Virus record (IMG/VR): IMGVR_UViG_3300045988_122191
Coordinates: 44,922-108,921 of that record
Length of the DNA: 64,000 nt
From: a virus
Reading direction: 5' to 3' (one strand)
Shown one piece after another: positions 30,483 through 54,505 of this stretch; within the stretch, counting starts at the first letter, position 1, and every line of letters begins with the position of its first letter. Below the pieces are notes generated by a model. That model did not search any database and had not been told where the DNA came from. It saw nothing but the letters and a program-made list of their open reading frames with translations. Both the position numbers and the translations under genes were made by a program.

Positions 30483-31661
30483 TCACTCCAATACTTTGTA
30501 GTCGTTCAAATACCAATACCCTTTCTTGTTCTTGTACAGACCTGCGCCGAACAGGATATTGTATTGAGCGAAAGGCTTCTTATCAAAAATAGACTTACGA
30601 ACCGTGAGTCTTGCCTCGTTACCAGTCCCGATAGACCGAACTGTTGTGGCAACACCCCACACTCCGTTAGGCCCATTCAGGTCAAACGTCTCAAGAACAA
30701 TCAGCTTTCTTCTGTCTTGCGGATCATTGGTCGTGATGTCTATGTACCCCATTAGTCCAAGCTGATCCATGATCCTACTCCTCACATCAGCCTCTTCAAT
30801 ACCAAGACTTAGAACATTGCGCTCACATTCCTCCAATAAGCCGGGCATATCTGTGATCGTATAAGACTTTAGCTCATTGCCCTTCACGCCAACGTCTGTC
30901 GCGTGTCGCTTTACTATTTCACACATCGGCCCTTCTTTAAGCTTTGTCTTCTTAATAGATTTGGCCGTGCCATCATTAAAGAACTTGAAGATGTCGTATA
31001 TTCTTTGCAACTCACGGGTGTTGCCATACTCAGAAAAGAACCCTATGCGGATTAGATTTAAGAGTTGTCGCTCATTACACGACGTCTCTGATCTAATTCG
31101 AATGAGTGTCTCCATAAATGTCTTCGGTTTCTTCTGGTGATACATGGCATAGAGTTGCTGCGGCACAACTTTGTTAAGATACTTTACAGAGCTGATACCT
31201 TTGGATACGATCTTTCTGTCCGGGTCAAACATGTACTGGTCAGACGACGCACCAAACATCGGGGGCGTAATCTTCAGCCCGTATATCTGTGCAAGCTTAG
31301 TGCCGTTTCTGATATCCTCATCCTTTGCTGGATTATTTAGATAACTCGTCACAAACTCATACGGATGATAACAACGCAACCACGCACACAAAAACCCAAC
31401 CAGACAATAGCTAATAGAGTGATTGTAACCAAACTGATATGACGCACTGTCCTCCAGTATCTGAAGGAACTCTTTTGCTTCTTCTTCGGCCACTTCTCGT
31501 GGCTTATCTGACTTACTACAATACCCGTCAAGAATTTTTGGAAGCGCAGCGTCTAATCTATCTTTGTCCTTTCTACCAATGGCTCGGCGGATATTGTCAC
31601 TTTCAGAACCAGACAACCCGCAGATTTGTTGCAGGAATTTAATCGTGTCTTCCTGATAAAT
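30483..31661 (-). CDS. dnaE: DNA polymerase III alpha subunit, C-terminal segment (exon 2)
   Basis: The reading frame is open upstream of the annotated TTG as ...YQEDTIKFLQQICGLSGSESDNIRRAIGRK, matching DnaE [26 protein letters not shown]. Pol III alpha C-terminal region follows. Confidence 0.8.
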   Translation of the reverse strand: MYQEDTIKFLQQICGLSGSESDNIRRAIGRKDKDRLDAALPKILDGYCSKSDKPREVAEEEAKEFLQILEDSASYQFGYNHSISYCLVGFLCAWLRCYHPYEFVTSYLNNPAKDEDIRNGTKLAQIYGLKITPPMFGASSDQYMFDPDRKIVSKGISSVKYLNKVVPQQLYAMYHQKKPKTFMETLIRIRSETSCNERQLLNLIRIGFFSEYGNTRELQRIYDIFKFFNDGTAKSIKKTKLKEGPMCEIVKRHATDVGVKGNELKSYTITDMPGLLEECERNVLSLGIEEADVRSRIMDQLGLMGYIDITTNDPQDRRKLIVLETFDLNGPNGVWGVATTVRSIGTGNEARLTVRKSIFDKKPFAQYNILFGAGLYKNKKGYWYLNDYKVLE

Positions 31662-32618
31662 TAGATCCGTTTTATTATGTGCTATGTATCTCTTTCATCT
31701 TAATCGCATCTTCGAGCGGGATGCCTCGACGGATTCTAGCTCTTAACGTCGTGTATTTTATTCCCGTTCTTCTGGCCCATTCTGCCATGGTTAATGTTTC
31801 GCCATTGTAAGTAAACAGTTTATTGCTTGATTGGTTATTGCATTGTGATGTATGGTTAGACCACCTACAATTCGACGGGCAGTAATCTTTTGAGTTATCT
31901 ATCCTGTCAATTGTACATTCTTGTGGGGCCGCGTACTCGTTATATCCATTCTCGATTGCCCACTCTGAAAACGCCGTAAAATCGTTTCGCCATTCTTCGC
32001 ATACCGCAATGCCTTTCCCGCCATAATACTTATAGTTTTCAGAATTCTTATTGTAACAACGGTTTTTAATACCAGCCCACACACGATACAGTCTTGTTTT
32101 CGACGCTTTATGTGTCGTCATTCTTTCTCTAACTAGCTCTCTTTGAAGACACCCGCATGAACGAGTGTCTCCGGTAATTAGGTCACGGCTTGACACTACC
32201 TTTTCTTTGCCACAGTCGCATCGGCAACGCCACGTTGCGTTTTTTGCCTTATCGCTACCAGCTCTATCGACTACCAACAGTCTTCCAAACTGTTGCCCTT
32301 TTAATTGATACATACATTCACCTCCTTCATAATTTATTTACATAGCACTTAGTTCGCTAAACTATCCTCTACCATTTCGATAGAGCGTAGACTATATCTT
32401 CATCCGTTTTATCCGGATGCCCACCGCTTCGAACCGCCGATCGCTTGCGGTCCTACTTGCATACGCAATAGTCGTTGAACCTTTCTCTGTTCGAGACTTG
32501 GCTGCTGATTGCCCAATCTACATTCTTTTCAAACCATCACGCTTATCTTTGTTTCAAAATTACGTTGTGGCGAATATAGCTCTAAGGGGTTTCCAGCAAT
32601 TCAATGGGTTTGCAAGCG
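31659..32618 (-). mobile_element. intervening sequence in dnaE: putative group I intron carrying an HNH homing endonuclease ORF (boundaries approximate)
   Basis: About 960 nt separate DnaE ...ELLADNNG(LEIVPV) from (DL)IYQED.... It holds ~290 nt of ORF-free sequence upstream of the HNH gene. The HNH ORF has its own SD (AAGGAGGTG) and ends ~15 nt before the exon-2 homology. Confidence 0.55.
31675..32313 (-). CDS. HNH homing endonuclease (AP2-like plus HNH plus C-terminal HTH)
   Basis: RLYRVWAGIKNRCYNKNSENYKYYGGKGIAVCEEW, HNH motif IDRIDNSKDYCPSNCRWSNHTSQCNNQ, and C-terminal MAEWARRTGIKYTTLRARIRRGIPLEDAI. Confidence 0.8.
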   Translation of the reverse strand: MYQLKGQQFGRLLVVDRAGSDKAKNATWRCRCDCGKEKVVSSRDLITGDTRSCGCLQRELVRERMTTHKASKTRLYRVWAGIKNRCYNKNSENYKYYGGKGIAVCEEWRNDFTAFSEWAIENGYNEYAAPQECTIDRIDNSKDYCPSNCRWSNHTSQCNNQSSNKLFTYNGETLTMAEWARRTGIKYTTLRARIRRGIPLEDAIKMKEIHST

Positions 32619-34598
32619 CATATTACTATGCACCGGGACTATCTCTAATCCATTATTGTCCGCAAGCAACTCGTCAATCATTGGCGACGGGTTATGATGT
32701 GGAACTCTACTTATCAAATCATTTCTATACGACGCGCCAGACGGGCGAATACACGCAGTCACCAACGACATATCAAAGATCGACTTCGTGTTGAAGTCCT
32801 TTAGCATCTTTCCTGCAAAGGGAGATTCCATCTGAAAGATGCCGATATTGGAAACCATCATGTCTTCCCAAACCTTTTGGTCACCCCAATCTATTTCATG
32901 TGACTTCGGGTATGGGATGTTTGCCAGTTTGCAAGCGTCACGAATAATTTGTAGCGTACTTAGAACAAGCATGTCGTACTTAACGAGAGACACCTCATGG
33001 ATTTCTTCCATGTCAATCTGAAGTACGATACCGCTATCCTTGTGGTGAAAAACGCCATAGTTATCATCTAATGTAACAGGGCTGATCACAATGCCAGCCG
33101 GATGTACAGATTGTGATACTCTTGTATTCAGGAACCCATCAAAATAATAGAACGTTTCTTTGTATCTCTCTCTGCACGTTTCTGCATCCTTTCCGTAATC
33201 TGCTTTAATCTTTGCCGCTAGACTTACTGGATATGGGTTTTCGTTTTTGTCCGCTTCCGGATGTTGCTCTGCCCATTTATGTCTGAACCCACGCACAATC
33301 TCTTCGATAGTCGCCAAGCCTTTTAGTGTACCGCATGATGGAACGAACGCAGTCTTCCGTTGCCCGAATCGTTCAATAATGTAATTGAAGATCTTAGGCC
33401 GGTCATCTTCAATAACGTCTGTGTCGATATCGCCTACTTCAATCCGGTCCTCATTGCAAAAGCGGCTGAATACCGTATGCCATGTTTCCGGGTTAACATC
33501 TGTAATATCTGTCACATAAGCAACTCTTGACCCAGCTACACTGCCACGCCCAGGACCTGTTACAATTCCATTCTCATGACACCATGTAAGAATCTCGCTC
33601 ATGGATTGCATGAACCCGCACATCCCAAGTTTTGTGAATACTCTAAGCTCTTCTTTAATTGCGTCTCGGAACGCTTGTTCTTGCTCTCTTGGGATGATTC
33701 CGGCCTCTAACTTTGCTTCTAGCTTTTCGTTAATATTCTGGATAAATTTTTCTCTATCTTCTTCTGCAGACCCATAAAGGATTGGGTATTTCAAAGAAGT
33801 ATCTAATTCAAACTCCTCAACCTGATTTGCCATCAAGACTGTATTGTCTATCGCGGCCTGCCATGCTTCTTCTGGGATAGCGTCTTGTTTTTTAAAAGCT
33901 TCCCCCAGTTCCTCGCGCGACTTATACGTTAGATCAAAATCATCTTCCGTGTCATAATGCTTACTCTTTGCATAAGCAAGCAACGACCGACACTCAGCGT
34001 AGTATTGGTCGATACTGTGCGTGTCTGTTGCCGCAATCAAAGGGATGCCATACCTTTGAGACAGCGCTGCCAAGTGTCTGTTATAGACAATCTGATCTTC
34101 ACAATCGTGCGGTTGGATCTCAAGGTAGTCATACTTCTTTACGAGCTTCTCGTAGTACGGATGACTTACGTCCAGCTTGTTCAGTGGTGAAGCCAAACAA
34201 GCGGACGTTTTGATAATATTCGGAGAGATATTCAAAAACTCATCAAACGAAAGTCGCCCGACGTAGTATTTATGTTCTTCATCCGTTGACATACTAAGCA
34301 ACTTATTAAGTTCCAAAAACCCTTGTCGGTTCTTCGCTATCAGAATCGTATGATAGTTATCTCTCACTTTCTCATGTAGAGATTCCGTCAAATAAATTTC
34401 CACGCCATGTAGATACTTGACACCTGCTGCATCACAAGCCATCTTCTTGGCAACCCATCCACGGATGTTGCCATGCTCGGTGAAGCAAATAGCCTTCTGC
34501 CCAAGCTGCTTTGCCTTCTCTATGTAAAGGTTAAAATCTGTCGTCGAGTCCAACAGCGAATAGTCGCTGTGAACATGATACGCAACATAATTATCCAA
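32601..34598 (-). CDS. dnaE: DNA polymerase III alpha subunit, N-terminal segment (exon 1; the last ~6 codons before the stop are probably intron-encoded read-through)
   Basis: PHP domain start YHVHSDYSLLDS. Palm/fingers motifs ...KYDMLVLSTLQII..., IGIFQMES and ACIRPSGAS. Homology to DnaE is lost at ...GLEIVPV. Confidence 0.8.
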   Translation of the reverse strand: MDNYVAYHVHSDYSLLDSTTDFNLYIEKAKQLGQKAICFTEHGNIRGWVAKKMACDAAGVKYLHGVEIYLTESLHEKVRDNYHTILIAKNRQGFLELNKLLSMSTDEEHKYYVGRLSFDEFLNISPNIIKTSACLASPLNKLDVSHPYYEKLVKKYDYLEIQPHDCEDQIVYNRHLAALSQRYGIPLIAATDTHSIDQYYAECRSLLAYAKSKHYDTEDDFDLTYKSREELGEAFKKQDAIPEEAWQAAIDNTVLMANQVEEFELDTSLKYPILYGSAEEDREKFIQNINEKLEAKLEAGIIPREQEQAFRDAIKEELRVFTKLGMCGFMQSMSEILTWCHENGIVTGPGRGSVAGSRVAYVTDITDVNPETWHTVFSRFCNEDRIEVGDIDTDVIEDDRPKIFNYIIERFGQRKTAFVPSCGTLKGLATIEEIVRGFRHKWAEQHPEADKNENPYPVSLAAKIKADYGKDAETCRERYKETFYYFDGFLNTRVSQSVHPAGIVISPVTLDDNYGVFHHKDSGIVLQIDMEEIHEVSLVKYDMLVLSTLQIIRDACKLANIPYPKSHEIDWGDQKVWEDMMVSNIGIFQMESPFAGKMLKDFNTKSIFDMSLVTACIRPSGASYRNDLISRVPHHNPSPMIDELLADNNGLEIVPVHSNMRLQTH

Positions 34599-34601
34599 CC
34601 A

Positions 34602-37448
34602 TCATCCTCCTCCCTGTATCACTCCGTACACTTCCGATTCCATATCTAATGGAGCACATGGAACGCGGGTAGTGTAAATCTTGTCATCCCATTTATATCT
34701 GCGGTCATACTCTTCGTAGTTCGTAAAGAACCTCCGGCACGCTTCGTCGTAGTATAAGCCGAGTTCAAAACCAGCCCTTCCTCGCATACGATCTTTTGTT
34801 ACAGACACAACGCAGGAATACTGCGAGAACTTTGATGTTCCTTGTTCTTTCTCGTCCTGCCGCACTCTTCGTAAAGACAATGTTCGGTGTGCAAGATTGG
34901 GGAGGTTTGATGTGCCGCCAATATCGTACAACGCAACTGCTCCCGGTGTTGTACCGCTTGGGATTTTACGAGGGTGTGCAACCAGAATCACACACACGTT
35001 AAACTTTGAGGCGAACTGAATCAGCCAGTTGACCAGCTCGGTCTGTTTGTCATACTTGTTCTCGTCAGAAGAGTGCAGGTCTATTGTCATTAGGTTGTCC
35101 AACAGGAACAACTTACTGCCATACTTTCTAGCTGAGGCTTCCATAGATTCCTGGATTGATTCAATATCATTCGGCCATTCATTCTTATACACAAACCACT
35201 GGCCTCTATAACAATCGTTGATTTTTTCTTTCGCTTCTCTCGAAGCAACCCAGTAGACCGCGCCGTTCTTACCGGTGTGTTCTTCAACGTTCCTCGGCCC
35301 CGCGAGCAGGTAGTTCATCCACGCCTTGCTCATGAAGTCCGGTAACTCTCTTGAGAAAATCCAAGCACCTCTGTTTTGCTCAAGTGCATTACAGATAAGC
35401 TGGTACAAGAAGCTGGTCTTGCCGGAACCTGGCGTGCCGGTCACGAGCGTTAACGTCCCGAAGAACAGTTTAAACAGTTCCCTGTCGAGGCTTTCAATAC
35501 CAAAATAAATCCCGTCCAAGTCACTGATATTAACGTCCTCGACGTCACTAAGATCCATCACACTGTCAATCGGAGACTCCTTCGCGCTAAGAATTGCGTT
35601 CATCACCGCTTCTTTTCCCTTGTAATAAAGCAACTCATTCAAATCCTTAATGTGCCTACCAGTTGCTTCATCTATTGGCGGGATGTCTACCACCTTTGTC
35701 CTCCAGGAACCAAGTCTAGGGCACACATCTTTTGCCATTTGATAACCAGCTTTATCATTGTCAGAGCAGATAATAATTTCGGAAAACTGGTCTAGCCAAT
35801 CCATATTCTCTTCAATCCAGTGGTGATTTTGAGAACCTAAAGGAACGCTCACCGCGTTTGTATATCCGGACTCGATAGCAGCCATTGCGTCGCAGTTGCC
35901 TGTAACAAAAATTGTCCCGTATTGCCTCACTAAGATCATTCCACTTGGAACCGTCACACAATAAACTGGACCGCTGTAATACTGCGTGTCATATGTAATA
36001 TTGTTTAGATCCGCTTTTTTCTTACCTGTGATTGACACACGATAGCTCCCGTCCAATGTAGACAACTGGTATTTAACAGAGCATTGCTGTCCGCTTGTGT
36101 GAGCAATCGTCTGCATCACATTAGCGTTATCCAGTTTGCAGGCATAGCCTGCAGTCCATTTCTGAAATCGCCGAAGGATCACGAGCTTTTGTGTTTCAGA
36201 CGTGGTGCTAACCCACGAATAAGAGACGGGTTCTATGTGAACATGTGACGGGATCTTGAACAACAATTTAAAACCATAATCAGAAACTGGCGTCTCAACG
36301 TAACTAACGGATAGTTTCTTGAGAAGCCGCCGCAACCTACGCCGTTTTCTCTTTTCTGTCGTCAAGAGTCTGTACTCACCAGTGCTCTTGTCATAACTAC
36401 AGTTCTCCGATATAGCAATTGATAGTTCGACTTCATCCATAGTGAGAAAAAACCCATCGCCTGAATAACTCGTTGTAATTGGAGCCGATTTATACCAATC
36501 ATCTGGCAGTTTCCTCGCCTTCGTCTTCTCTAGAAAACCAAGAGCATTATAAGTTACAATATTATGGCCTCCAGTTACACACGACACATAGTTATCCGCA
36601 GCAATGAAGGAGAGGAACCCTTCGTAGTGCTCGTTGATAATTGCAACCGGTCTTACAAATCCGCCACGCAGTTTCGACCAAGTACCAGCAAATAGGTCAT
36701 CCGCGCACACCGAATACACGTCCTGCCCGTGATATTCATTAAACCGAACCCATCCATCAGGCGTTAGAATTTCTGCGTCACCAGGGAAGCACTCACCTTC
36801 AGTTATCAATAACGGTTGACTTATGTTTACCCTGTTCATATTGAAAAGGAGCGGACGAGTGTCCGCTCCTTTCTGACACCAGTTCTTAGCTTCGCCTTTT
36901 GACTTGTCAATTTTTCTAGCCGGTCGGTACTTTACCATCGTCAGTACGTCGTTCGTATCATAGTAATTAAACACAGCGTTGCCATGTTCATCCTCCCGCA
37001 CATCGCAATGGTCTAACGTCTTTTCACTAATCTTTCTCGTAGCCATGTACTGGTTTACGATTGACCGATCTCTTAACGGAGTCTGCTGAGGATAGCGATA
37101 CCCCCTATGAGTCTTGATGCCTTTCTCTCCAAAGCTATATACCATCCCAGCTTCTTCAAAAGTTTTCTCTGCCGCTTCAAGATATGTATCGCCAGACATC
37201 ACATAGGCGTCAATAATATCAATATTGCAGCCGCATCCAAAGCAGTGAAAACTATAGGCTTTCGGATTATAAATAAAGCTCGGAGTGTCTTCTTGATGCA
37301 CCGGGCATAATGATTTCAAGTTAGACGGATCAAACAATTTAAGGTCAAGTGTTTCAGCAATCAAGAATGGAGTTCTGTCTCCGACCTTCTCTTTTGCCTT
37401 TTGTAATTTTTCCTTTTCAATTAGCATTTCGTTCTCACCATCTACCAC
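34602..37448 (-). CDS. primase-helicase (CHC2 zinc finger, TOPRIM, DnaB/RepA-like P-loop helicase) with an intein
   Basis: Zn finger CPVHQEDT...HCFGCGC. TOPRIM LLITEGE|(intein)|CDAMAAIESGY. Helicase Walker A TGTPGSGKTSF. Confidence 0.8.
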   Translation of the reverse strand: MVDGENEMLIEKEKLQKAKEKVGDRTPFLIAETLDLKLFDPSNLKSLCPVHQEDTPSFIYNPKAYSFHCFGCGCNIDIIDAYVMSGDTYLEAAEKTFEEAGMVYSFGEKGIKTHRGYRYPQQTPLRDRSIVNQYMATRKISEKTLDHCDVREDEHGNAVFNYYDTNDVLTMVKYRPARKIDKSKGEAKNWCQKGADTRPLLFNMNRVNISQPLLITEGECFPGDAEILTPDGWVRFNEYHGQDVYSVCADDLFAGTWSKLRGGFVRPVAIINEHYEGFLSFIAADNYVSCVTGGHNIVTYNALGFLEKTKARKLPDDWYKSAPITTSYSGDGFFLTMDEVELSIAISENCSYDKSTGEYRLLTTEKRKRRRLRRLLKKLSVSYVETPVSDYGFKLLFKIPSHVHIEPVSYSWVSTTSETQKLVILRRFQKWTAGYACKLDNANVMQTIAHTSGQQCSVKYQLSTLDGSYRVSITGKKKADLNNITYDTQYYSGPVYCVTVPSGMILVRQYGTIFVTGNCDAMAAIESGYTNAVSVPLGSQNHHWIEENMDWLDQFSEIIICSDNDKAGYQMAKDVCPRLGSWRTKVVDIPPIDEATGRHIKDLNELLYYKGKEAVMNAILSAKESPIDSVMDLSDVEDVNISDLDGIYFGIESLDRELFKLFFGTLTLVTGTPGSGKTSFLYQLICNALEQNRGAWIFSRELPDFMSKAWMNYLLAGPRNVEEHTGKNGAVYWVASREAKEKINDCYRGQWFVYKNEWPNDIESIQESMEASARKYGSKLFLLDNLMTIDLHSSDENKYDKQTELVNWLIQFASKFNVCVILVAHPRKIPSGTTPGAVALYDIGGTSNLPNLAHRTLSLRRVRQDEKEQGTSKFSQYSCVVSVTKDRMRGRAGFELGLYYDEACRRFFTNYEEYDRRYKWDDKIYTTRVPCAPLDMESEVYGVIQGGG
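35895..36791 (-). mobile_element. intein (299 aa) inserted in the TOPRIM EGE-CDA motif of the primase-helicase
   Basis: Block A CFPGDAEILTPDGWVRF begins immediately after TEGE. Block B is VTGGHNIV. Blocks F/G are VYCVTVPSGMILVRQYGTIFVTGN followed by the +1 Cys of CDAMAA. Confidence 0.6.
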
Positions 37449-37454
37449 ACTCCT

Positions 37455-37946
37455 TTACTCCATTGTTGCATCCGTACTCTCTACATTCATCCTCGCTCCG
37501 CAATTTGGGCAATATCTTGCGAATGTATACGGCTTGAGGTTTTCTAAAAACTTCTCTAAAGCTTTTTGCTTTTCTGCTTCTAAATCCCATTCATACGTAT
37601 ACTCTTCTCCATCCGGCGCATATAGTCTGCGCGACCATACTACTGCATTATTTGGATACCTTTCCCCGCACCCAGAACACACTGCCGTGATGGACACAGA
37701 AAGCTCTCTTTCCTCAGACATTGTATCCATATAAAAGGCGGCTGGTCTTAGTCGCCATTCTTGAAGGTGCGCAGAGGAAACATTCGCCGCTGGTGCATTT
37801 TCTATAGCACTAATCACATCTTCAGGATCAAAGTTTCCTTCCGGGTATTTCATTGGTGGCCCGTACACACCGCCGCCATCTTCCCACCATATCGGCAGAT
37901 CTTTTATGTATGCTAAAAGAGATTCTCTCTCGATATATTCAGGCAT
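37455..37946 (-). CDS. hypothetical zinc-ribbon protein
   Basis: CSGCG...CPNCG Cys pairs in 163 aa. Confidence 0.4.
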   Translation of the reverse strand: MPEYIERESLLAYIKDLPIWWEDGGGVYGPPMKYPEGNFDPEDVISAIENAPAANVSSAHLQEWRLRPAAFYMDTMSEERELSVSITAVCSGCGERYPNNAVVWSRRLYAPDGEEYTYEWDLEAEKQKALEKFLENLKPYTFARYCPNCGARMNVESTDATME

Positions 37947-39240
37947 CTTTATCTCCTTCTATTGCCCACTTTGCAATTCCGCCCAACACAAACTCAACGC
38001 ATGGCAACGCAACGCCATTGCCCCACATCTTGTATTCCGCCGATTCGGAGTACGGACTTTTCAGCCACTTGACGATTTGCTTGTCTGTCTTCCGCTTCTT
38101 TCCAGCCAGACCCGTCCAGGTGTCGAACACCTCGCGCCAAAAAGACAGCTCATCGGCTGTCGGGTCCTCCGCGCTAAGATCAGCGCACCACCAGCCGGGG
38201 AAGCCTTGGAGTCTGGCACACTCTGTCGGGGTCAGTTTGCGCACCTGATAGTAGGGGGTGACTATAGCGATACCGCCTTGATTTGAGCAGGGGTTTCCGC
38301 CGCCCTCGCACTCTGAGCGTATCTCGAGCAACAGGGGAACGTTGTTGCCGCCAGTACCCATATGGCTAGTCAGGGTTGGGACTACATCACCCTCCGCAAT
38401 CTTCACCCTGCCATCCTGCGCGTGATTTTCTAAGACTATTGGCGCGTACCCGTGCATACTCGCTCTGAGCGTTCCGTTTATACCATAGGACAAATCCATT
38501 TGTTGTCCACCTTGGTCGTTTAGACAGACGCCGCTTGCATTTCCAAGGCCACTCGCAAGGCTTCTGGGAGTTCCTTTCCCCGCTCGGCGGCTCTGCGCAG
38601 GATTCCCTGACAAGCCTTCGCACTCAAAAAGTATTTCTCCGGCACTTCCGCCTGCAAGATCTGCGACGAGGTAGATGCGACGTCTGTGTTGGGGGACTCC
38701 CCAGTATTGCGCATCAAGAGTTCTGTACGCAACGCTCCATCCGTCTCCCATGTATAGGTCGGCGTAGGGCCATCGTGCCTTTTCAGGCATAGGCACCTGG
38801 GCATTCGGTTCGGCGATCCCGATGACTGCCTCAAGGACGCACCGGAAGTCTTCGCCTTTGTTCGAGGAGAAGGCCCCGGGGACGTTCTCCCACACGATGT
38901 ATCTTGGATATTTGCCACCTGTGGCACACCTCATTTCTTTGATAACGCGGACGGCTTCGTAAAAAAGACTGGAACGCGCTCCGCCCAAGCCGTCTCTTCG
39001 GCCTGCCACGCTCATGTCCTGGCACGGTGAACCGAAGGTGATGATGTCAACCGGTTCGATTTCGTCACCGTGCATCTTGGACACATCCCCGTAATGTTTC
39101 ATCTCAGGGATGCGTTTAGTAGTGACACGAATCGGAAACGGCTCAATCTCCGACGCCCATACGGGGGTGATCCCGTGGGCAAGGCCAGCTAACGGGAATC
39201 CACCAGAGCCGTCAAATAAGCTGCCTAAAGTCATCTTCAC
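37939..39240 (-). CDS. DNA (cytosine-5)-methyltransferase
   Basis: Motif I LFDGSGG, motif IV GSPCQDMS and ENV motif WENVPG. The GC-rich central region (target recognition domain) produces spurious antisense ORFs. Confidence 0.85.
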   Translation of the reverse strand: MKMTLGSLFDGSGGFPLAGLAHGITPVWASEIEPFPIRVTTKRIPEMKHYGDVSKMHGDEIEPVDIITFGSPCQDMSVAGRRDGLGGARSSLFYEAVRVIKEMRCATGGKYPRYIVWENVPGAFSSNKGEDFRCVLEAVIGIAEPNAQVPMPEKARWPYADLYMGDGWSVAYRTLDAQYWGVPQHRRRIYLVADLAGGSAGEILFECEGLSGNPAQSRRAGKGTPRSLASGLGNASGVCLNDQGGQQMDLSYGINGTLRASMHGYAPIVLENHAQDGRVKIAEGDVVPTLTSHMGTGGNNVPLLLEIRSECEGGGNPCSNQGGIAIVTPYYQVRKLTPTECARLQGFPGWWCADLSAEDPTADELSFWREVFDTWTGLAGKKRKTDKQIVKWLKSPYSESAEYKMWGNGVALPCVEFVLGGIAKWAIEGDKDA

Positions 39241-40157
39241 GCGCTCCTCCTCCCCTCTCTTTTCACCCTAAACGGACAACTCTCAGCAGTGTCACAAATA
39301 TATGTACATCTGAAAAACTCAGGGTCTGGTTCAAACTCTCTCTCATTTTTAATCTCTTCGATTCGATCCAGTACCCACTGTTTCACCTGCTCAAGCCGTT
39401 CTTCGTCGAATGCTTCTGCGATAAACCGCCCATGTCGGTAACAATTGAAATCCAAAGTCGCAGGCCATTTCCCATATTCTTCTTTGATGGGGATTGAGTA
39501 AATATAAGGCTGCCTGTAGTACCTGTCTAGTTCCTTGTCATACTCTGTCTGGAACTTTCTATTGCTTCTGAATCTCAATCCGTGTGACTTGTGGTCGGCT
39601 ATATGTAACCCGTTCTCTTCGGCCAATACATCTATAAAACCAACAAAGTTGTACGGGCCAATCATGAAGTGGACTTCTTTTTCAACAGCGACAATATCTT
39701 TGATATCGTATGGGAAGTCAATGTTTTCCAAATACGAAAGTGAATTATTGAAGAAATTATCCTCGACCTTTTTGCTCGGTGGTTTACCAACGACCTCCTC
39801 GTCATAGTGATCCAGGAAATACGGTACAAGCTCTTCCTTCTTTAACGCCCGTGACAAATACTGCTCCAGCACATGGTGCATAAATCTGCCATACGTGGAA
39901 AAGAAGTGTGGCTCCGGTTTGATTCTTACCGCTGTGTGCTCAAGAACCTTTTGGTAAGTCTCGTCGTCGAGTCTTTTCTTCATCCACTCCATAACCTTCC
40001 TGTAAACCTGGTCTAATTCTTTGTTGTACGCTATGTACCGAACAAACCAGCCATACTTGCAGTCATCAAACGAAGACAGTCTAGAATAACTCCACAGCAT
40101 AGCTGAAATTGCTCTTTCATATTCGGGGTCAGAGACGACTTCAAAAGGGATCGTCAT
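39237..40157 (-). CDS. PD-(D/E)XK nuclease, Cas4/RecB-like phage exonuclease
   Basis: D...ExK-like core (FIDVL...HIADHK) and a C-terminal Cys cluster CTYICDTAESCPF typical of Cas4-like Fe-S nucleases. Adjacent to ssb and erf. Confidence 0.6.
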   Translation of the reverse strand: MTIPFEVVSDPEYERAISAMLWSYSRLSSFDDCKYGWFVRYIAYNKELDQVYRKVMEWMKKRLDDETYQKVLEHTAVRIKPEPHFFSTYGRFMHHVLEQYLSRALKKEELVPYFLDHYDEEVVGKPPSKKVEDNFFNNSLSYLENIDFPYDIKDIVAVEKEVHFMIGPYNFVGFIDVLAEENGLHIADHKSHGLRFRSNRKFQTEYDKELDRYYRQPYIYSIPIKEEYGKWPATLDFNCYRHGRFIAEAFDEERLEQVKQWVLDRIEEIKNEREFEPDPEFFRCTYICDTAESCPFRVKREGRRSA

Positions 40158-40503: not shown

Positions 40504-41214
40504 TTATTCCTCCGTATGTAGTTTATTCAAATCTCTCAGCAGAGCAGTCGCTCTTGCCTTCTTTTTAATTTGTTTGTAGTCTCCAGTGGGAATCAGCTTC
40601 CCATTTTCGTCACGCTTATCTACGTGCTTTGTAACCAACTCTCTAATCTTTTCTCTCTTGCTAGGATCTTTTGCCGCGATGTCGTTAGCGATTGCGTCAA
40701 TTTCTTCAATGATAGACGCGAGTTCGTTCTTAGACTTCTCTTCTTTTTGCTTCGAGCGAATGAAGTCCGGATCGTCGGTAGTAGTAGCACACTGAAAGTA
40801 TTTCAGTAGGAAATATCTGTTACTGTAGGTAAGAGCCGAACCAAACGCCTGGCTGCTATCTGCTTGATTGCCAGTCATCGTCCAGGGGACAATGATCTTT
40901 TCTTCAGGATTGTCGTTGTTAACCCAGGTATAGACCATATCGGCAGAGACCAAGAATTCATTTACTGTTTCCGTCTTGCCGCCTTTCGTTTTCTCGTAGC
41001 TAAAAGGCCGCACGTCCGCCGTACCGTGGACAATCCCTGGAACCAGCGTCAGACCGTACTCCGCAACAGCACTGTTGATTTTAGGCAACAGCTCTACGTC
41101 AGAAGTGTAGCTATACCCATACCCCTTCTTATCTTTCTTGACAACATCTACGGCTTTCTGTACTGCCGCAAGCTTCTGATAGATGTTCAATGTTGCGTGA
41201 TTTTCTTTTTCCAT
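40504..41214 (-). CDS. erf: ERF-family single-strand annealing protein
   Basis: N-terminus NIYQKLAAVQKAV...KDKKGYGYSYTSDVELL resembles Erf. Sits with ssb and the exonuclease as a recombination module. Confidence 0.55.
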   Translation of the reverse strand: MEKENHATLNIYQKLAAVQKAVDVVKKDKKGYGYSYTSDVELLPKINSAVAEYGLTLVPGIVHGTADVRPFSYEKTKGGKTETVNEFLVSADMVYTWVNNDNPEEKIIVPWTMTGNQADSSQAFGSALTYSNRYFLLKYFQCATTTDDPDFIRSKQKEEKSKNELASIIEEIDAIANDIAAKDPSKREKIRELVTKHVDKRDENGKLIPTGDYKQIKKKARATALLRDLNKLHTEE

Positions 41215-53094: not shown

Positions 53095-53659
53095 TCAGTT
53101 TATTCAGTACGTCAGTTACATCTTTATTCGCCTGCGCTACCTTAACACAGTTGTTATTGATGATAATCTTGTACGCTTCACTCAACTCTTCTAGGTTCTT
53201 GATCTCAGATCTTCTTTCTTTAATCTGGGCATCTGCCTCATCAATCATTTTCCTATACATGTCAGACTCTTCCTGCACTTGCTTCTGAACATCCTCCAGA
53301 GTTGCCTTAGTAGAGTTCAATTTATCCAGCATTTTAGTTACATATGTATTGTTAAATTCATCACCTAAACCAAGGTCGATCTTGTAAAGAGTCACGACAA
53401 CCTTTTCTCGTTCGTCTACAAGGAGCACCCAAGTATCTTGCACATAAACGTCAATTACTTTGCCCTTGCCATCCTTCTGAGATTGTCTGCCTGAATAAAT
53501 ACAACTGCCGTATTCTATCATCTTGTTAATATCTGTCTTAATCTTATCTTCATTCAGAGAAACAAAACGAGCAGCGTCTGGCTTCTCCCTTTTACCCATA
53601 ACGCGTTCCGCGTAACGAGTTTTACAATGCGATGATACTTGATACTTTACATTTTCCAT
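53075..53659 (-). CDS. hypothetical protein (N-terminal alpha/beta domain plus C-terminal coiled coil)
   Basis: 194-aa ORF. Confidence 0.4.
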   Translation of the reverse strand: MENVKYQVSSHCKTRYAERVMGKREKPDAARFVSLNEDKIKTDINKMIEYGSCIYSGRQSQKDGKGKVIDVYVQDTWVLLVDEREKVVVTLYKIDLGLGDEFNNTYVTKMLDKLNSTKATLEDVQKQVQEESDMYRKMIDEADAQIKERRSEIKNLEELSEAYKIIINNNCVKVAQANKDVTDVLNKLIEKKVF

Positions 53660-53687
53660 GTACTATCCTCAAACCTTATTTTAATTT

Positions 53688-54023
53688 TCAAATAGAAATC
53701 TCAATCAAGAAATCATAAACTTTATCCCACGATGATAGGTCGATGTACTCTTTTTTCTCCTCCCCGTGTGAGACAAATACATCTCCGATCTTAAAATCCT
53801 TTAGCCAGTCTTTCTCATAAATGCAATAACTAACCCAATGTTCGTCATCGTGCATCGCGTCTTCGATCAGTTGTATTGCTATGTCGAAAATATCCGTAAT
53901 GTAGAGGCCGCAGAAATCAGGATTAAGTTTTTTCATGGCAGAGTCCACTGCGTTCATCCTGCTATCCAAATCCATTAGCCTTTTCATAATGCTAACAAAA
54001 ATTTCTTTTGTCATATTAGCCAC
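53688..54023 (-). CDS. hypothetical protein
   Basis: 111-aa ORF. Confidence 0.35.
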   Translation of the reverse strand: MANMTKEIFVSIMKRLMDLDSRMNAVDSAMKKLNPDFCGLYITDIFDIAIQLIEDAMHDDEHWVSYCIYEKDWLKDFKIGDVFVSHGEEKKEYIDLSSWDKVYDFLIEISI

Positions 54024-54163
54024 CCATAATCATAATCTCAAAACCGCTTTCCTTTGCCTTCTCGCATTTGCGCATCTCTTCTTTGAGGAAAGCGATAAAG
54101 TCATGTTCTGAACTCAGTTCGACGACCTCACAGCTATTATTGAACGTAACAAAGTAGTTCATA

Positions 54164-54505
54164 TTAAGCATCCTCCTCCAAATTTTTTACGGCATTCTTT
54201 ACCGCTCTGGTTCTTCTGAGTCTTTCAGCCAGTCTATCAGCAGCAAGCTCAATAATCTCATCCTTATGTTCGTTGATTACCTCTGTGAGTTTTTTGTCAA
54301 AGTATATCGTTGGCTCATCATTTCCGCACCACTTCATAATCAGGACGTTGCGCACTTGCTCCGCCATTTCCTTAGTGATAGCGTTCTCAGCCCCTTGTTC
54401 AATGCTTTTCTTGATGTATTCGTCGTCAATCGTAATGCCAAACTGTACGATATGTTCCATTGAAACTCCTCCTGTCACATGAGTTGATAATCTATACGCC
54501 CGCAC
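54164..54505 (-). CDS. hypothetical protein
   Basis: 113-aa ORF. Confidence 0.35.
   Translation of the reverse strand: MRAYRLSTHVTGGVSMEHIVQFGITIDDEYIKKSIEQGAENAITKEMAEQVRNVLIMKWCGNDEPTIYFDKKLTEVINEHKDEIIELAADRLAERLRRTRAVKNAVKNLEEDA

What the first reader, a model, noticed from the sequence alone, without database searches (positions are those of the whole stretch)
35895..36791. Intein inserted in the TOPRIM catalytic motif of the primase-helicase
The TOPRIM motif EGExDA is interrupted as LLITEGE | C FPGDAEILTPDGWVRF ... VTGGHNIV ... VYCVTVPSGMILVRQYGTIFVTGN | CDAMAA. The inserted 299 aa have Hint blocks A, B and F/G and a +1 Cys. The terminal residues are GN rather than the canonical HN. 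The central ~150 aa has no obvious LAGLIDADG or HNH motif, so it may be a degenerate endonuclease or linker domain. Together with the dnaE insert this puts two selfish elements in the replication module.
Basis: partly seen in the sequence, partly recalled or inferred. Interest (0 to 1): 0.65.

Follow-up and report, generated by a model that had tools for sequence, protein, structure and literature searches.

The report
Primase-helicase intein with dead homing endonuclease
The phage primase-helicase gene really is interrupted, inside its catalytic TOPRIM motif, by a 299-residue self-splicing protein element (an intein) from a family already known in phages, and this copy has lost the catalytic residues of the endonuclease that would make it mobile.

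Summary
Confirmed. Window 35895-36791 (minus strand) encodes exactly the 299 residues quoted. They are residues 220-518 of a 948-aa T7-gp4-like primase-helicase and lie between LLITEGE and CDAMAA.

The element is not new. The same intein sits at the same EGE|C site in cluster A1 mycobacteriophage TOPRIM proteins (Kelley 2016). It also sits there in about 135 of 179 family inteins retrieved from metagenomes. Relatives occupy phosphoesterase/RDF, PhoH, ThyX, NAMPT, RNR and helicase P-loop sites.

"GN" is the family rule: penultimate Gly in 179/179, with invariant Cys1, block-B Thr/His and block-F Cys. An experimentally spliced relative, the Bethlehem-type RDF intein, shares this signature.

The central domain is a LAGLIDADG fold. 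Both catalytic Asp positions (94-95% conserved in the family) are replaced here (Asn130, Thr213), and the second DNA-binding hairpin is deleted. The endonuclease is therefore probably dead and the intein fixed.

The splicing route is unresolved. Class 1 is favoured, but the closest Hint structure is a class 3 intein.

The neighbouring dnaE insert is a group I intron.

The parts
34602..37448 (-). Precursor gene: 948-aa T7-gp4-like primase-helicase containing the intein. The start codon is uncertain; relatives begin at the equivalent of Met8.
   Evidence: ORF list. Pfam Zn_ribbon_DnaG, Toprim_2, DnaB_C. Alignment of the spliced sequence with T7 gp4 chains 5ikn/6n7i.
36792..37448 (-). N-extein (aa 1-219): zinc ribbon, primase N-part and the first half of the TOPRIM motif, ending ...PLLITEGE.
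   Evidence: 61% identical to the intein-less homologue in L002.
35895..36791 (-). Intein, 299 aa (precursor aa 220-518).
36477..36791 (-). Hint N-lobe (intein aa 1-105). Contains block A Cys1 (36789-36791) and block B T73-G-G-H76 (36564-36575). Also carries a clade-specific loop of about 10 aa (ADDLFAGTWSKLRGG).
   Evidence: Coordinates checked by translation. T73 and H76 are 121/121 in the family alignment. Cys1 is 179/179. The loop has lower pLDDT and is an insertion relative to other family members.
36006..36476 (-). Degenerate LAGLIDADG homing-endonuclease-fold domain (intein aa 106-262). Motif-1 remnant ELSIAISEN lies at 36402-36428 (Asn130 in place of Asp). Motif-2 remnant VILRRFQKWTAG lies at 36147-36182 (Thr213 in place of Asp). 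The second beta1'-beta2' hairpin is deleted.
35895..36005 (-). Hint C-lobe (intein aa 263-299). Block F VYCVTVPSGMILVR lies at 35925-35966 (Cys278 = F:4). Block G IFVTGN lies at 35895-35912 (Thr297 = G:5, Gly298 = G:6, Asn299 = G:7).
   Evidence: F:4 Cys 121/121. G:6 Gly 179/179 and G:7 Asn 177/179.
35892..35894 (-). +1 Cys, the first C-extein residue. It occupies the x of EGExD, where intein-less homologues have Thr.
   Evidence: The +1 residue in the family is Cys 147, Ser 28, Thr 4 of 179.
34602..35894 (-). C-extein (aa 519-948 plus stop): the rest of TOPRIM (CDAMAA..., DxD at 35745-35765) and the DnaB-type helicase with an uninterrupted P-loop GTPGSGKTS (35412-35438).

Best explanation
The insert is a genuine intein of the 'large' type: a Hint splicing domain with a LAGLIDADG endonuclease-fold domain nested in it. 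It belongs to a widespread phage intein family and sits at that family's commonest homing site, between the Glu and the x of the TOPRIM EGExD motif.

While the intein is present, the primase active site is split. Primase activity therefore requires protein splicing, which would yield a 649-aa primase-helicase reading ...ITEGE-CDAMAA... plus a free 299-aa intein.

Most likely route (inferred, about 0.7), the class 1 order of steps:
- Cys1 (precursor C220) makes the N-S acyl shift, helped by Thr73 and His76 (block B).
- Cys+1 (C519) takes over the N-extein.
- Asn299 cyclises without either of the usual His helpers (the family has Gly at G:6 and Leu/Met in place of the block-F His).
- An S-N shift restores the peptide bond.
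- The invariant block-F Cys278 sits where class 1 inteins usually have Asp and probably assists. It may act as a relay.

The endonuclease domain of this copy is most likely catalytically dead (inferred, about 0.8). The element would then be a fixed, vertically inherited passenger in this phage clade, kept foldable and splicing-competent by selection on an essential replication gene.

Shown: the sequence, the site, the fold, the family membership, the residue conservation and the presence/absence polymorphism. Inferred: that it splices, by which route, and that the endonuclease is inactive.
For: Site and excisability:
- The intein-less homologue in L002 reads PLLITEGETDCASAIEAGY with no gap.
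- 106 of 119 best extein homologues lack the insert, and 7 carry it at the same site.
- Toprim_2 improves from 30.5 to 38.3 bits once the insert is removed.
- The spliced sequence aligns colinearly with T7 gp4 across the junction.

Fold:
- AF2 pLDDT 89.7, pTM 0.88.

Family:
- The same site and a homologous intein occur in mycobacteriophage TOPRIM proteins, e.g. Turj99 gp53, annotated 'intein-containing topoisomerase primase'. Kelley et al. 2016 (PMC5050341) describe these.
- Relatives occupy phosphoesterase, PhoH, NAMPT, ThyX, RNR, RtcB, DNA polymerase and helicase P-loop sites.

Catalytic residues: Cys1 179/179, Gly G:6 179/179, Asn G:7 177/179, +1 Cys/Ser/Thr 179/179. Thr B:7, His B:10 and Cys F:4 are each 121/121.

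Experimental precedent:
- The family HMM matches the U2 gp51 intein end to end at 110.8 bits. That intein is 317 aa, with R157 and G316 as in the Bethlehem RDF intein.
- The Bethlehem RDF intein splices efficiently with penultimate Gly, and its G316H mutant is impaired (PMC5050341).

Selection: window versus L007 exteins are 98% identical with dN/dS about 0.01, so the host gene is functional.

Dead endonuclease: Asn130 and Thr213 replace Asp that is conserved in 114/121 and 115/121 family members. Hairpin deletions are seen. GC content is the same as in the flanks.
Against: - No experiment exists for this intein or for any TOPRIM-site intein. Kelley et al. tested TerL and RDF inteins only.
- Neither Pfam nor NCBIfam recognises the insert (0 hits at E<=10), and sequence searches of PDB chains find nothing significant. 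Identification as an intein therefore rests on a predicted structure, family context and motifs.
- Both His residues that normally assist Asn cyclisation are absent.
- The endonuclease domain is still under purifying selection (pN 0.24-0.36 against pS 0.72-0.86). 'Dead' may therefore not mean 'functionless'. A Glu one position before the lost Asp (S-E-N) is conserved in the clade.
Confidence: 0.85

Rival explanations
1. The intein splices by a class 3 or hybrid route. The invariant block-F Cys278, not Cys1, attacks the N-terminal junction to form a block-F branched thioester, which passes the N-extein to Cys+1. Cys1 would be dispensable, or would act only as an alternative or relay nucleophile.
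For: - That intein has an atypical M-C-T triplet, penultimate Gly145, no F:13 His, Pro at Cys+4, and G145H kills it (PMC7891396).
- This family has the same signature: B:12 Met/Leu/Ile/Val, F:4 Cys 121/121, G:5 Thr/Ser, G:6 Gly, Pro at Cys+4.
- The G-to-H effect is mirrored in the RDF relative.
- Class 3 inteins do not require the residue-1 nucleophile even when they have one (PMC5222942).
Against: - Cys1 is invariant in 179/179 family inteins across at least 10 different exteins. This is not expected if Cys1 were dispensable; AceL NrdHF has Ala1.
- The defining Trp at B:12 is absent.
- F:4 Cys is the second commonest residue at that position among inteins in general (PMC4031507), so it is not diagnostic.
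- Kelley et al. treat the penultimate-Gly RDF intein as class 1.
Confidence: 0.22
2. The endonuclease domain is still an active homing endonuclease with unorthodox catalytic residues (for example Glu129 shifted by one position). The intein would then remain mobile.
For: - The S-E-N motif, with Glu immediately before the lost Asp, is conserved across the clade (window, P0176, P0177, P0178, P0183, P0030).
- The domain is under purifying selection.
- The basic helix EKRKRRRLRRLLKKL, including the Arg column that aligns with RDF-intein R157, is retained. Mutating R157 inactivated the RDF endonuclease.
- Synonymous divergence is higher in the intein than in the exteins between window and L007, which hints at intein exchange.
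Against: - Both canonical metal-binding positions are non-acidic, whereas 94-95% of family members keep Asp.
- The second motif has no nearby acidic substitute (KWTAGY), and the hairpin following it is deleted.
- Only 6 of 121 family members show such loss, and they look like independent decay events.
- From general knowledge of LAGLIDADG enzymes: Asp-to-Asn changes at these positions abolish cleavage in I-CreI and PI-SceI.
Confidence: 0.08
3. The 299 aa are an ordinary, non-excised domain insertion, or a dead intein that has inactivated the gene.
For: No profile library recognises the insert. No splicing data exist.
Against: - Most homologues lack the insert and have a contiguous TOPRIM motif.
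- The insert sits two residues after the catalytic Glu equivalent to T7 gp4 Glu157.
- All splicing residues are intact and family-invariant.
- The exteins evolve under strong purifying selection (dN/dS about 0.01).
- No second primase-helicase was seen among the ORFs examined in the replication module; the rest of the 64-kb window was not searched.
Confidence: 0.03

Closest known systems
TOPRIM inteins of cluster A1 mycobacteriophages (Kelley et al. 2016, mBio, PMC5050341), e.g. Turj99 gp53, Petp2012, BillKnuckles
   Same: The insertion point is identical (AIAEGE|C...VTGN|CD against LLITEGE|C...VTGN|CD). The intein is homologous over its whole length (about 31% identity). The catalytic signature is the same: Cys1, T..H, F:4 Cys, T-G-N, +1 Cys. 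The architecture is the same, Hint plus LAGLIDADG.
   Different: The host protein there is a short TOPRIM-only primase of about 210 aa after splicing, not a gp4-like primase-helicase. The host phages infect Actinobacteria, not gut Clostridia. Their LAGLIDADG motifs are intact (AVSADAAV, EWDGNRV), whereas the window copy has lost both Asp and two hairpin segments.
Bethlehem/U2 gp51 RDF (metallophosphoesterase) intein, shown experimentally to splice (Kelley et al. 2016)
   Same: It belongs to the same family: the family HMM scores 110.8 bits end to end. It has F:4 Cys (VWCLRVPNG) and a T-G-N terminus. The penultimate Gly is functional, and changing it to His impairs splicing.
   Different: The extein and insertion site differ (HEGNHD|C...TGN|S). 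The +1 residue is Ser. The endonuclease is active (toxic in E. coli). Identity to family members is only about 23%.
AceL NrdHF class 3 split intein (PDB 6ZGQ; Hoffmann et al. 2021, PMC7891396)
   Different: It has Ala1 (no N-terminal nucleophile), is naturally split with a free-standing GIY-YIG gene, has no nested endonuclease domain, and its class 3 mechanism is proven. HMMER detects no sequence similarity.
Classical LAGLIDADG inteins PI-SceI, PI-PfuI, PI-PkoII, TliVMA
   Different: They are class 1 inteins with penultimate His. Their endonucleases are intact, with extra DNA-recognition regions. Sequence identity is 10-16%.

Membership tests
Intein (protein-splicing Hint element) | In-frame insertion at a conserved site of a host protein, absent from orthologues | tested here: met
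   The intein-less L002 ORF is contiguous across the site. 106 of 119 best homologues lack the insert.
Intein (protein-splicing Hint element) | Hint fold | tested here: met
Intein (protein-splicing Hint element) | N-terminal Cys/Ser, block B Thr-x-x-His, C-terminal Asn, +1 Cys/Ser/Thr | tested here: met
   C1, T73/H76, N299 and C+1 are present and invariant in the family.
Intein (protein-splicing Hint element) | Penultimate His (G:6) and block-F Asp/His. These are typical but not obligatory. | tested here: not met
   Gly298, Cys278 and Met285/Leu287 occupy these positions. Such variation is known and compatible with splicing (PMC5050341, PMC7891396, PMC4031507).
Intein (protein-splicing Hint element) | Actual excision with ligation of the exteins | not testable with these tools
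   Needs expression and gel or mass-spectrometry analysis.
TOPRIM-site intein allele (as in A1 mycobacteriophages) | Same insertion point in the EGExD motif, and a homologous intein sequence | tested here: met
   About 135 of 179 family inteins follow EGE, EGQ, GGE or SGE.
Class 3 inteins | No requirement for a residue-1 nucleophile (usually absent) | tested here: inconclusive
   Cys1 is present and invariant in 179/179. Whether it is dispensable cannot be tested here.
Class 3 inteins | WCT triplet: Trp B:12, Cys F:4, Thr G:5 | tested here: not met
   The window has Ile78, Cys278, Thr297. The family has Met/Leu/Ile/Val at B:12 and never Trp. This resembles the atypical MCT of AceL NrdHF.
Class 3 inteins | Block-F branched thioester intermediate | not testable with these tools
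   Requires biochemistry.
LAGLIDADG homing endonuclease (double-motif) | Two alpha-beta-beta-alpha-beta-beta-alpha half-domains | tested here: inconclusive
LAGLIDADG homing endonuclease (double-motif) | Acidic metal-binding residue at the end of each LAGLIDADG helix | tested here: not met
   Asn130 and Thr213 are present where the family has Asp in 114/121 and 115/121 sequences.
LAGLIDADG homing endonuclease (double-motif) | Site-specific DNA cleavage of the intein-less allele | not testable with these tools
   Requires a cleavage assay.

The most novel reading that the evidence does not exclude
This very large phage intein family has invariant Cys1, invariant block-F Cys, Thr/Ser-Gly-Asn, and no His helpers. 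It may be a mechanistic bridge between class 1 and the AceL-NrdHF type of class 3 inteins. On this reading the block-F Cys is an obligatory relay or alternative nucleophile, or it forms a redox-sensitive disulfide with Cys1 or Cys+1. The endonuclease-dead copy fixed in this gut-phage clade would then be retained as a conditional switch that gates primase activity, rather than as a mere passenger.
Probability: 0.12. Interest if true: 0.55.

Novelty: new member of a known kind. Interest (0 to 1): 0.3.

Why it matters
For annotation: the gene should be called an intein-containing primase-helicase, with a mature product of 649 aa. Standard profile libraries miss this entire intein family (no Pfam or NCBIfam hit), although it is present in more than a thousand 50%-identity protein clusters. 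Many phage replication proteins are therefore probably mis-sized or split in annotations.

For biology: this is a clean example of the late stage of the homing cycle. The intein is fixed in an essential gene, its endonuclease active site is gone, and both domains are still under purifying selection. Close relatives show every state: no intein, an intact intein, a decayed intein, and a second intein in the helicase P-loop.

For mechanism: the family's residue signature matches a proven class 3 intein in everything except the invariant Cys1. Inexpensive mutagenesis (C1A against C278A) would therefore be informative about how class 3 splicing arose. None of this is surprising to an intein specialist.

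Tried and rejected
- Pfam and NCBIfam scans of the insert alone: no family at E<=10 apart from a meaningless MetRS hit.
- phmmer and a 4-sequence profile against PDB sequences: only chance hits (MetRS, angiopoietin). No intein was found, not even 6ZGQ.
- First word-indexed homologue search with the single sequence: only 2 hits. This gave a false impression of rarity, which the profile search and the exhaustive phmmer search corrected.
- An endonuclease encoded out of frame or on the antisense strand, as in some actinophage inteins (bioRxiv 10.1101/2025.01.02.630785): no other ORF longer than 54 aa overlaps the intein. Rejected.
- Recent acquisition detectable from base composition: GC is 0.42-0.46 across the intein, within the 0.39-0.50 range of the flanking gene. 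No signal.
- dN/dS by region among four close relatives: synonymous sites are saturated in most comparisons. Only the qualitative statement pN well below pS for the intein, and dN/dS about 0.01 for the window-L007 exteins, can be made.
- Tori and Perler 2011 (PMC3133030), on class 3 inteins that begin with Ser or Cys, is not held in the library. That point rests on secondary citations and on my own knowledge.
- Pseudomonas phage KIL2 primase/helicase, checked as a possible cultured-phage example of the TOPRIM-site intein: its intein is in the helicase P-loop instead.
Full report
**1. The observation**

The ORF at window 34602-37448 on the minus strand encodes a 948-aa protein. They are preceded by ...QPLLITEGE and followed by CDAMAAIESG.... 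Within the precursor these are residues 220-518. The plus strand of the same stretch is full of stops, and no other ORF longer than 54 aa overlaps it.

**2. The host protein and the insertion site**

- Pfam finds Zn_ribbon_DnaG, Toprim_2 and DnaB_C in the precursor.
- The Toprim_2 match starts only after the insert, at profile position 5, with 30.5 bits. Deleting the insert in silico makes the match contiguous from profile position 2 and raises it to 38.3 bits.
- The spliced sequence aligns with the solved T7 gp4 primase-helicase. PLLITEGE-CDAMAA is paired with KIVVTEGE-IDMLTV.
- Counting along that alignment puts the junction between gp4 residues 159 and 160. That is two residues after Glu157, the TOPRIM catalytic Glu (its role is from my knowledge of T7 primase), and one residue before Asp161.
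- The TOPRIM active site is therefore split as long as the insert is present.

**3. Intein-free homologues**

- A 638-aa homologue in a human-faecal phage scaffold (MT835469.1, locus L002) is 61% identical in the N-extein and 47% in the C-extein. It reads PLLITEGETDCASAIEAGY without any gap.
- The spliced extein was searched against 5.8 billion proteins. Of the 119 best hits (51-99% identity):
  - 106 are about 600-680 aa with neither insert;
  - 7 carry an insert at the same EGE|C site;
  - 6 carry a related insert in the helicase P-loop.
- P0030, found separately, has both inserts.
That is not met.

**4. Fold**

- AlphaFold2 was run on the insert plus 8 flanking residues on each side, with a 27-sequence family alignment. 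It gives mean pLDDT 89.7 and pTM 0.88.
- Foldseek against the PDB returns endonuclease-bearing inteins first: TliVMA 1.9e-11, PhoVMA, PI-SceI, PI-PfuI. It also returns LAGLIDADG domains (WhiA N-domain, I-DmoI, I-Tsp061I) for the centre.
- The insert is thus a Hint domain with a nested LAGLIDADG-fold domain.
- Sequence profiles do not see this. Pfam and NCBIfam give nothing at E<=10, and HMMER against PDB sequences gives only noise.

**5. Family and distribution**

- A first word-indexed search found only two relatives, both TOPRIM proteins with the same junctions.
- tblastn against phage genomes found the same element at the same site in cluster A1 mycobacteriophages such as BillKnuckles, Turj99, Petp2012 and Switzer. 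Turj99 gp53 is annotated 'intein-containing topoisomerase primase' and reads AIAEGE|CLRGDAEVLTPEGWVRFD...VSVTGN|CDTIAA.
- Kelley et al. 2016 (PMC5050341) list eight TOPRIM inteins in A1 phages and note that the insertion is in the active site. A 2025 survey again lists DnaG-like primase among actinophage intein hosts.
- A profile search added relatives in metallophosphoesterase, PhoH, NAMPT and ThyX. tblastn added RNR, RtcB, DNA polymerase and Lak-phage genes.
- An exhaustive phmmer search of 1.84 billion cluster representatives gave 1252 hits at E<=1e-3.
- A family HMM finds 179 near-full-length inteins among the retrieved proteins. About 135 of them follow EGE, EGQ, GGE or SGE, which is the TOPRIM site.
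- This is therefore a common, already described intein allele. The window copy is a new member in a gp4-like primase-helicase of what looks like a phage or prophage of gut Clostridia. The neighbouring methyltransferase matches Oscillospirales phages, and close relatives come from human-associated metagenomes.

**6. Catalytic signature and mechanism**

Residues at the key positions:

| Position | Window residue | Family |
|---|---|---|
| A:1 | Cys1 | Cys 179/179 |
| B:7 / B:10 | Thr73 / His76 | 121/121 each |
| B:12 | Ile78 | Met/Leu/Ile/Val, never Trp |
| F:4 | Cys278 | Cys 121/121 |
| Block-F His position | Met285 / Leu287 | Met or Leu predominate |
| G:5 | Thr297 | Thr or Ser 142/179 |
| G:6 | Gly298 | Gly 179/179 |
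| G:7 | Asn299 | Asn 177/179 |
| +1 | Cys | Cys 147, Ser 28, Thr 4 |

- 'GN instead of HN' is therefore the family norm and not a defect of this copy.
- The U2 gp51 phosphoesterase intein matches the family HMM end to end at 110.8 bits. It is 317 aa, with R157 and G316 exactly as in the Bethlehem gp51 RDF intein studied by Kelley et al..
- That RDF intein splices essentially to completion with its native Gly and is strongly impaired by G316H. This is direct experimental precedent for the signature.
- According to the Mills-Johnson-Perler review, F:4 is most often Asp, then Cys (PMC4031507). Cys278 alone is therefore not diagnostic of class 3.
- I favour the class 1 order of reactions, at about 0.7, because Cys1 is invariant across many exteins.
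- Which Cys starts the reaction cannot be settled by computation.

**7. The central domain**

- Relatives have two recognisable LAGLIDADG-type helices: (I/L)xLxxA(V/I)SADxx and ILxExxxWDGNxV. Some relatives carry precomputed PF14528 (LAGLIDADG_3) hits.
- The two Asp columns are conserved in 114/121 and 115/121 family members. The window has Asn130 (ELSIAISEN) and Thr213 (KWTAG) at those columns.
- It also lacks about 10 residues after each motif.
- In the AF2 model of an intact relative (P0001), the second LAGLIDADG helix is followed by a beta-hairpin (E329-332, E337-342). In the window model only a two-residue bridge remains between helices 207-220 and 228-239.
- The endonuclease is thus very probably catalytically dead, and half of its DNA-binding saddle is eroded. 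Only 6 of 121 family members show comparable loss.

**8. Evolution within the clade**

- The closest relatives share the same degenerate state: S-E-N, W-T/S/G-G-G/N, and both deletions. They are P0175 (99% identical), P0176, P0177, P0178, P0183 and P0030. The loss therefore predates their divergence.
- A slightly more distant relative at the same site, P0179 (77% extein identity), has intact motifs.
- Window against L007 (P0176): the exteins are 98% identical, with dN about 0.01 and dS 0.7-1.1. The intein is only 62-73% identical, with dN 0.18-0.29.
- Even so, pN (0.24-0.36) stays far below the saturated pS (0.72-0.86) in the endonuclease domain as well as in the Hint lobes. The dead domain is therefore not drifting freely. 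The simplest reading is selection for a foldable insert that still lets an essential protein splice.
- Synonymous divergence is higher in the intein than in the exteins for the window-L007 pair. This hints at different histories (recombination), which I could not resolve.
- GC content does not differ from the flanks.

**9. Comparison with what is known, and verdict**

- The element works like, and is a member of, the phage TOPRIM-site intein allele first catalogued in A1 mycobacteriophages.
- It differs in three ways: the host protein (a fused primase-helicase), the host lineage, and the decayed endonuclease.
- It meets the defining features of an intein that can be tested in silico. It fails the WCT definition of class 3 and fails the catalytic-residue criterion of an active LAGLIDADG enzyme.
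- Novelty: a new member of a known kind. Interest is modest.

**10.

It is right in spirit. The adjacent dnaE gene is interrupted too, but by a group I intron (RF00028, 82.8 bits, E 3.4e-21, at 32367-32693 on the minus strand). A free-standing 212-aa ORF follows at 31675-32313. Relatives have an uninterrupted 1044-aa DnaE. The two selfish elements are therefore of different kinds.

Noticed in passing
window 31675-32693 (-), within dnaE 30483-34598 (-): dnaE is split by a group I intron (RF00028, 82.8 bits, E 3.4e-21, at 32367-32693). A 212-aa ORF (31675-32313) with no Pfam hit follows, presumably the intron's homing endonuclease. Close relatives (L007, L008) encode an uninterrupted 1044-aa DnaE, so the 'dnaE insert' is an intron, not an intein.
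   Followed up: partly
L004 6229-6341 and L005 1780-1892, matching window 36016-36128: A prophage remnant in ENA gut metagenome contigs lies next to bacterial topA, gidA and plsX. It carries a 113-bp piece 83% identical to the intein's endonuclease region. The piece sits inside a mosaic 128-aa gene (P0025), which also joins pieces matching window 53470-54474 and 40685-40731. This looks like deletion scars of a relative of this phage.
   Followed up: partly
window 35412-35438 (-), the P-loop GTPGSGKTS; relatives P0030, P0181, P0184, P0186, P0192, P0196, P0197; L010 (Pseudomonas phage KIL2): A second intein of the same family occupies the helicase P-loop (G-x-P-G|C...GN|S/T-GKT) in close relatives and in phage KIL2. 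The window's P-loop is uninterrupted. P0030 carries both inteins.
   Followed up: partly
window 35895-36791 (-) and the whole family: Pfam and NCBIfam give no hit at E<=10 for this intein, although exhaustive phmmer finds 1252 representative clusters. This is an annotation blind spot for a very common phage intein family.
   Followed up: yes
window 34602-37448 against L007 3001-5820: Between two phages whose primase-helicase exteins are 98% identical, the intein is only 62-73% identical. Its synonymous differences are also higher (pS 0.52-0.86 against 0.45-0.58). This suggests that the intein and the exteins have different histories, through intein exchange or extein homogenisation.
   Followed up: partly
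window 37939-39240 (-) and 39237-40157 (-): Upstream neighbours in the same operon-like array are a C-5 cytosine DNA methyltransferase and a PD-(D/E)XK nuclease. Part of the methyltransferase gene is 76-85% identical in DNA to Oscillospirales and Acutalibacteraceae phages, which is a clue to the host. Downstream are a dNMP-kinase-like gene and an anaerobic RNR (NrdD).
   Followed up: no
window 37425-37448 (-): The start of the primase-helicase gene is uncertain. The longest ORF opens with GTG at 37448, directly after an AGGAG. Relatives start at the position equivalent to Met8 (ATG at 37425-37427).
   Followed up: no
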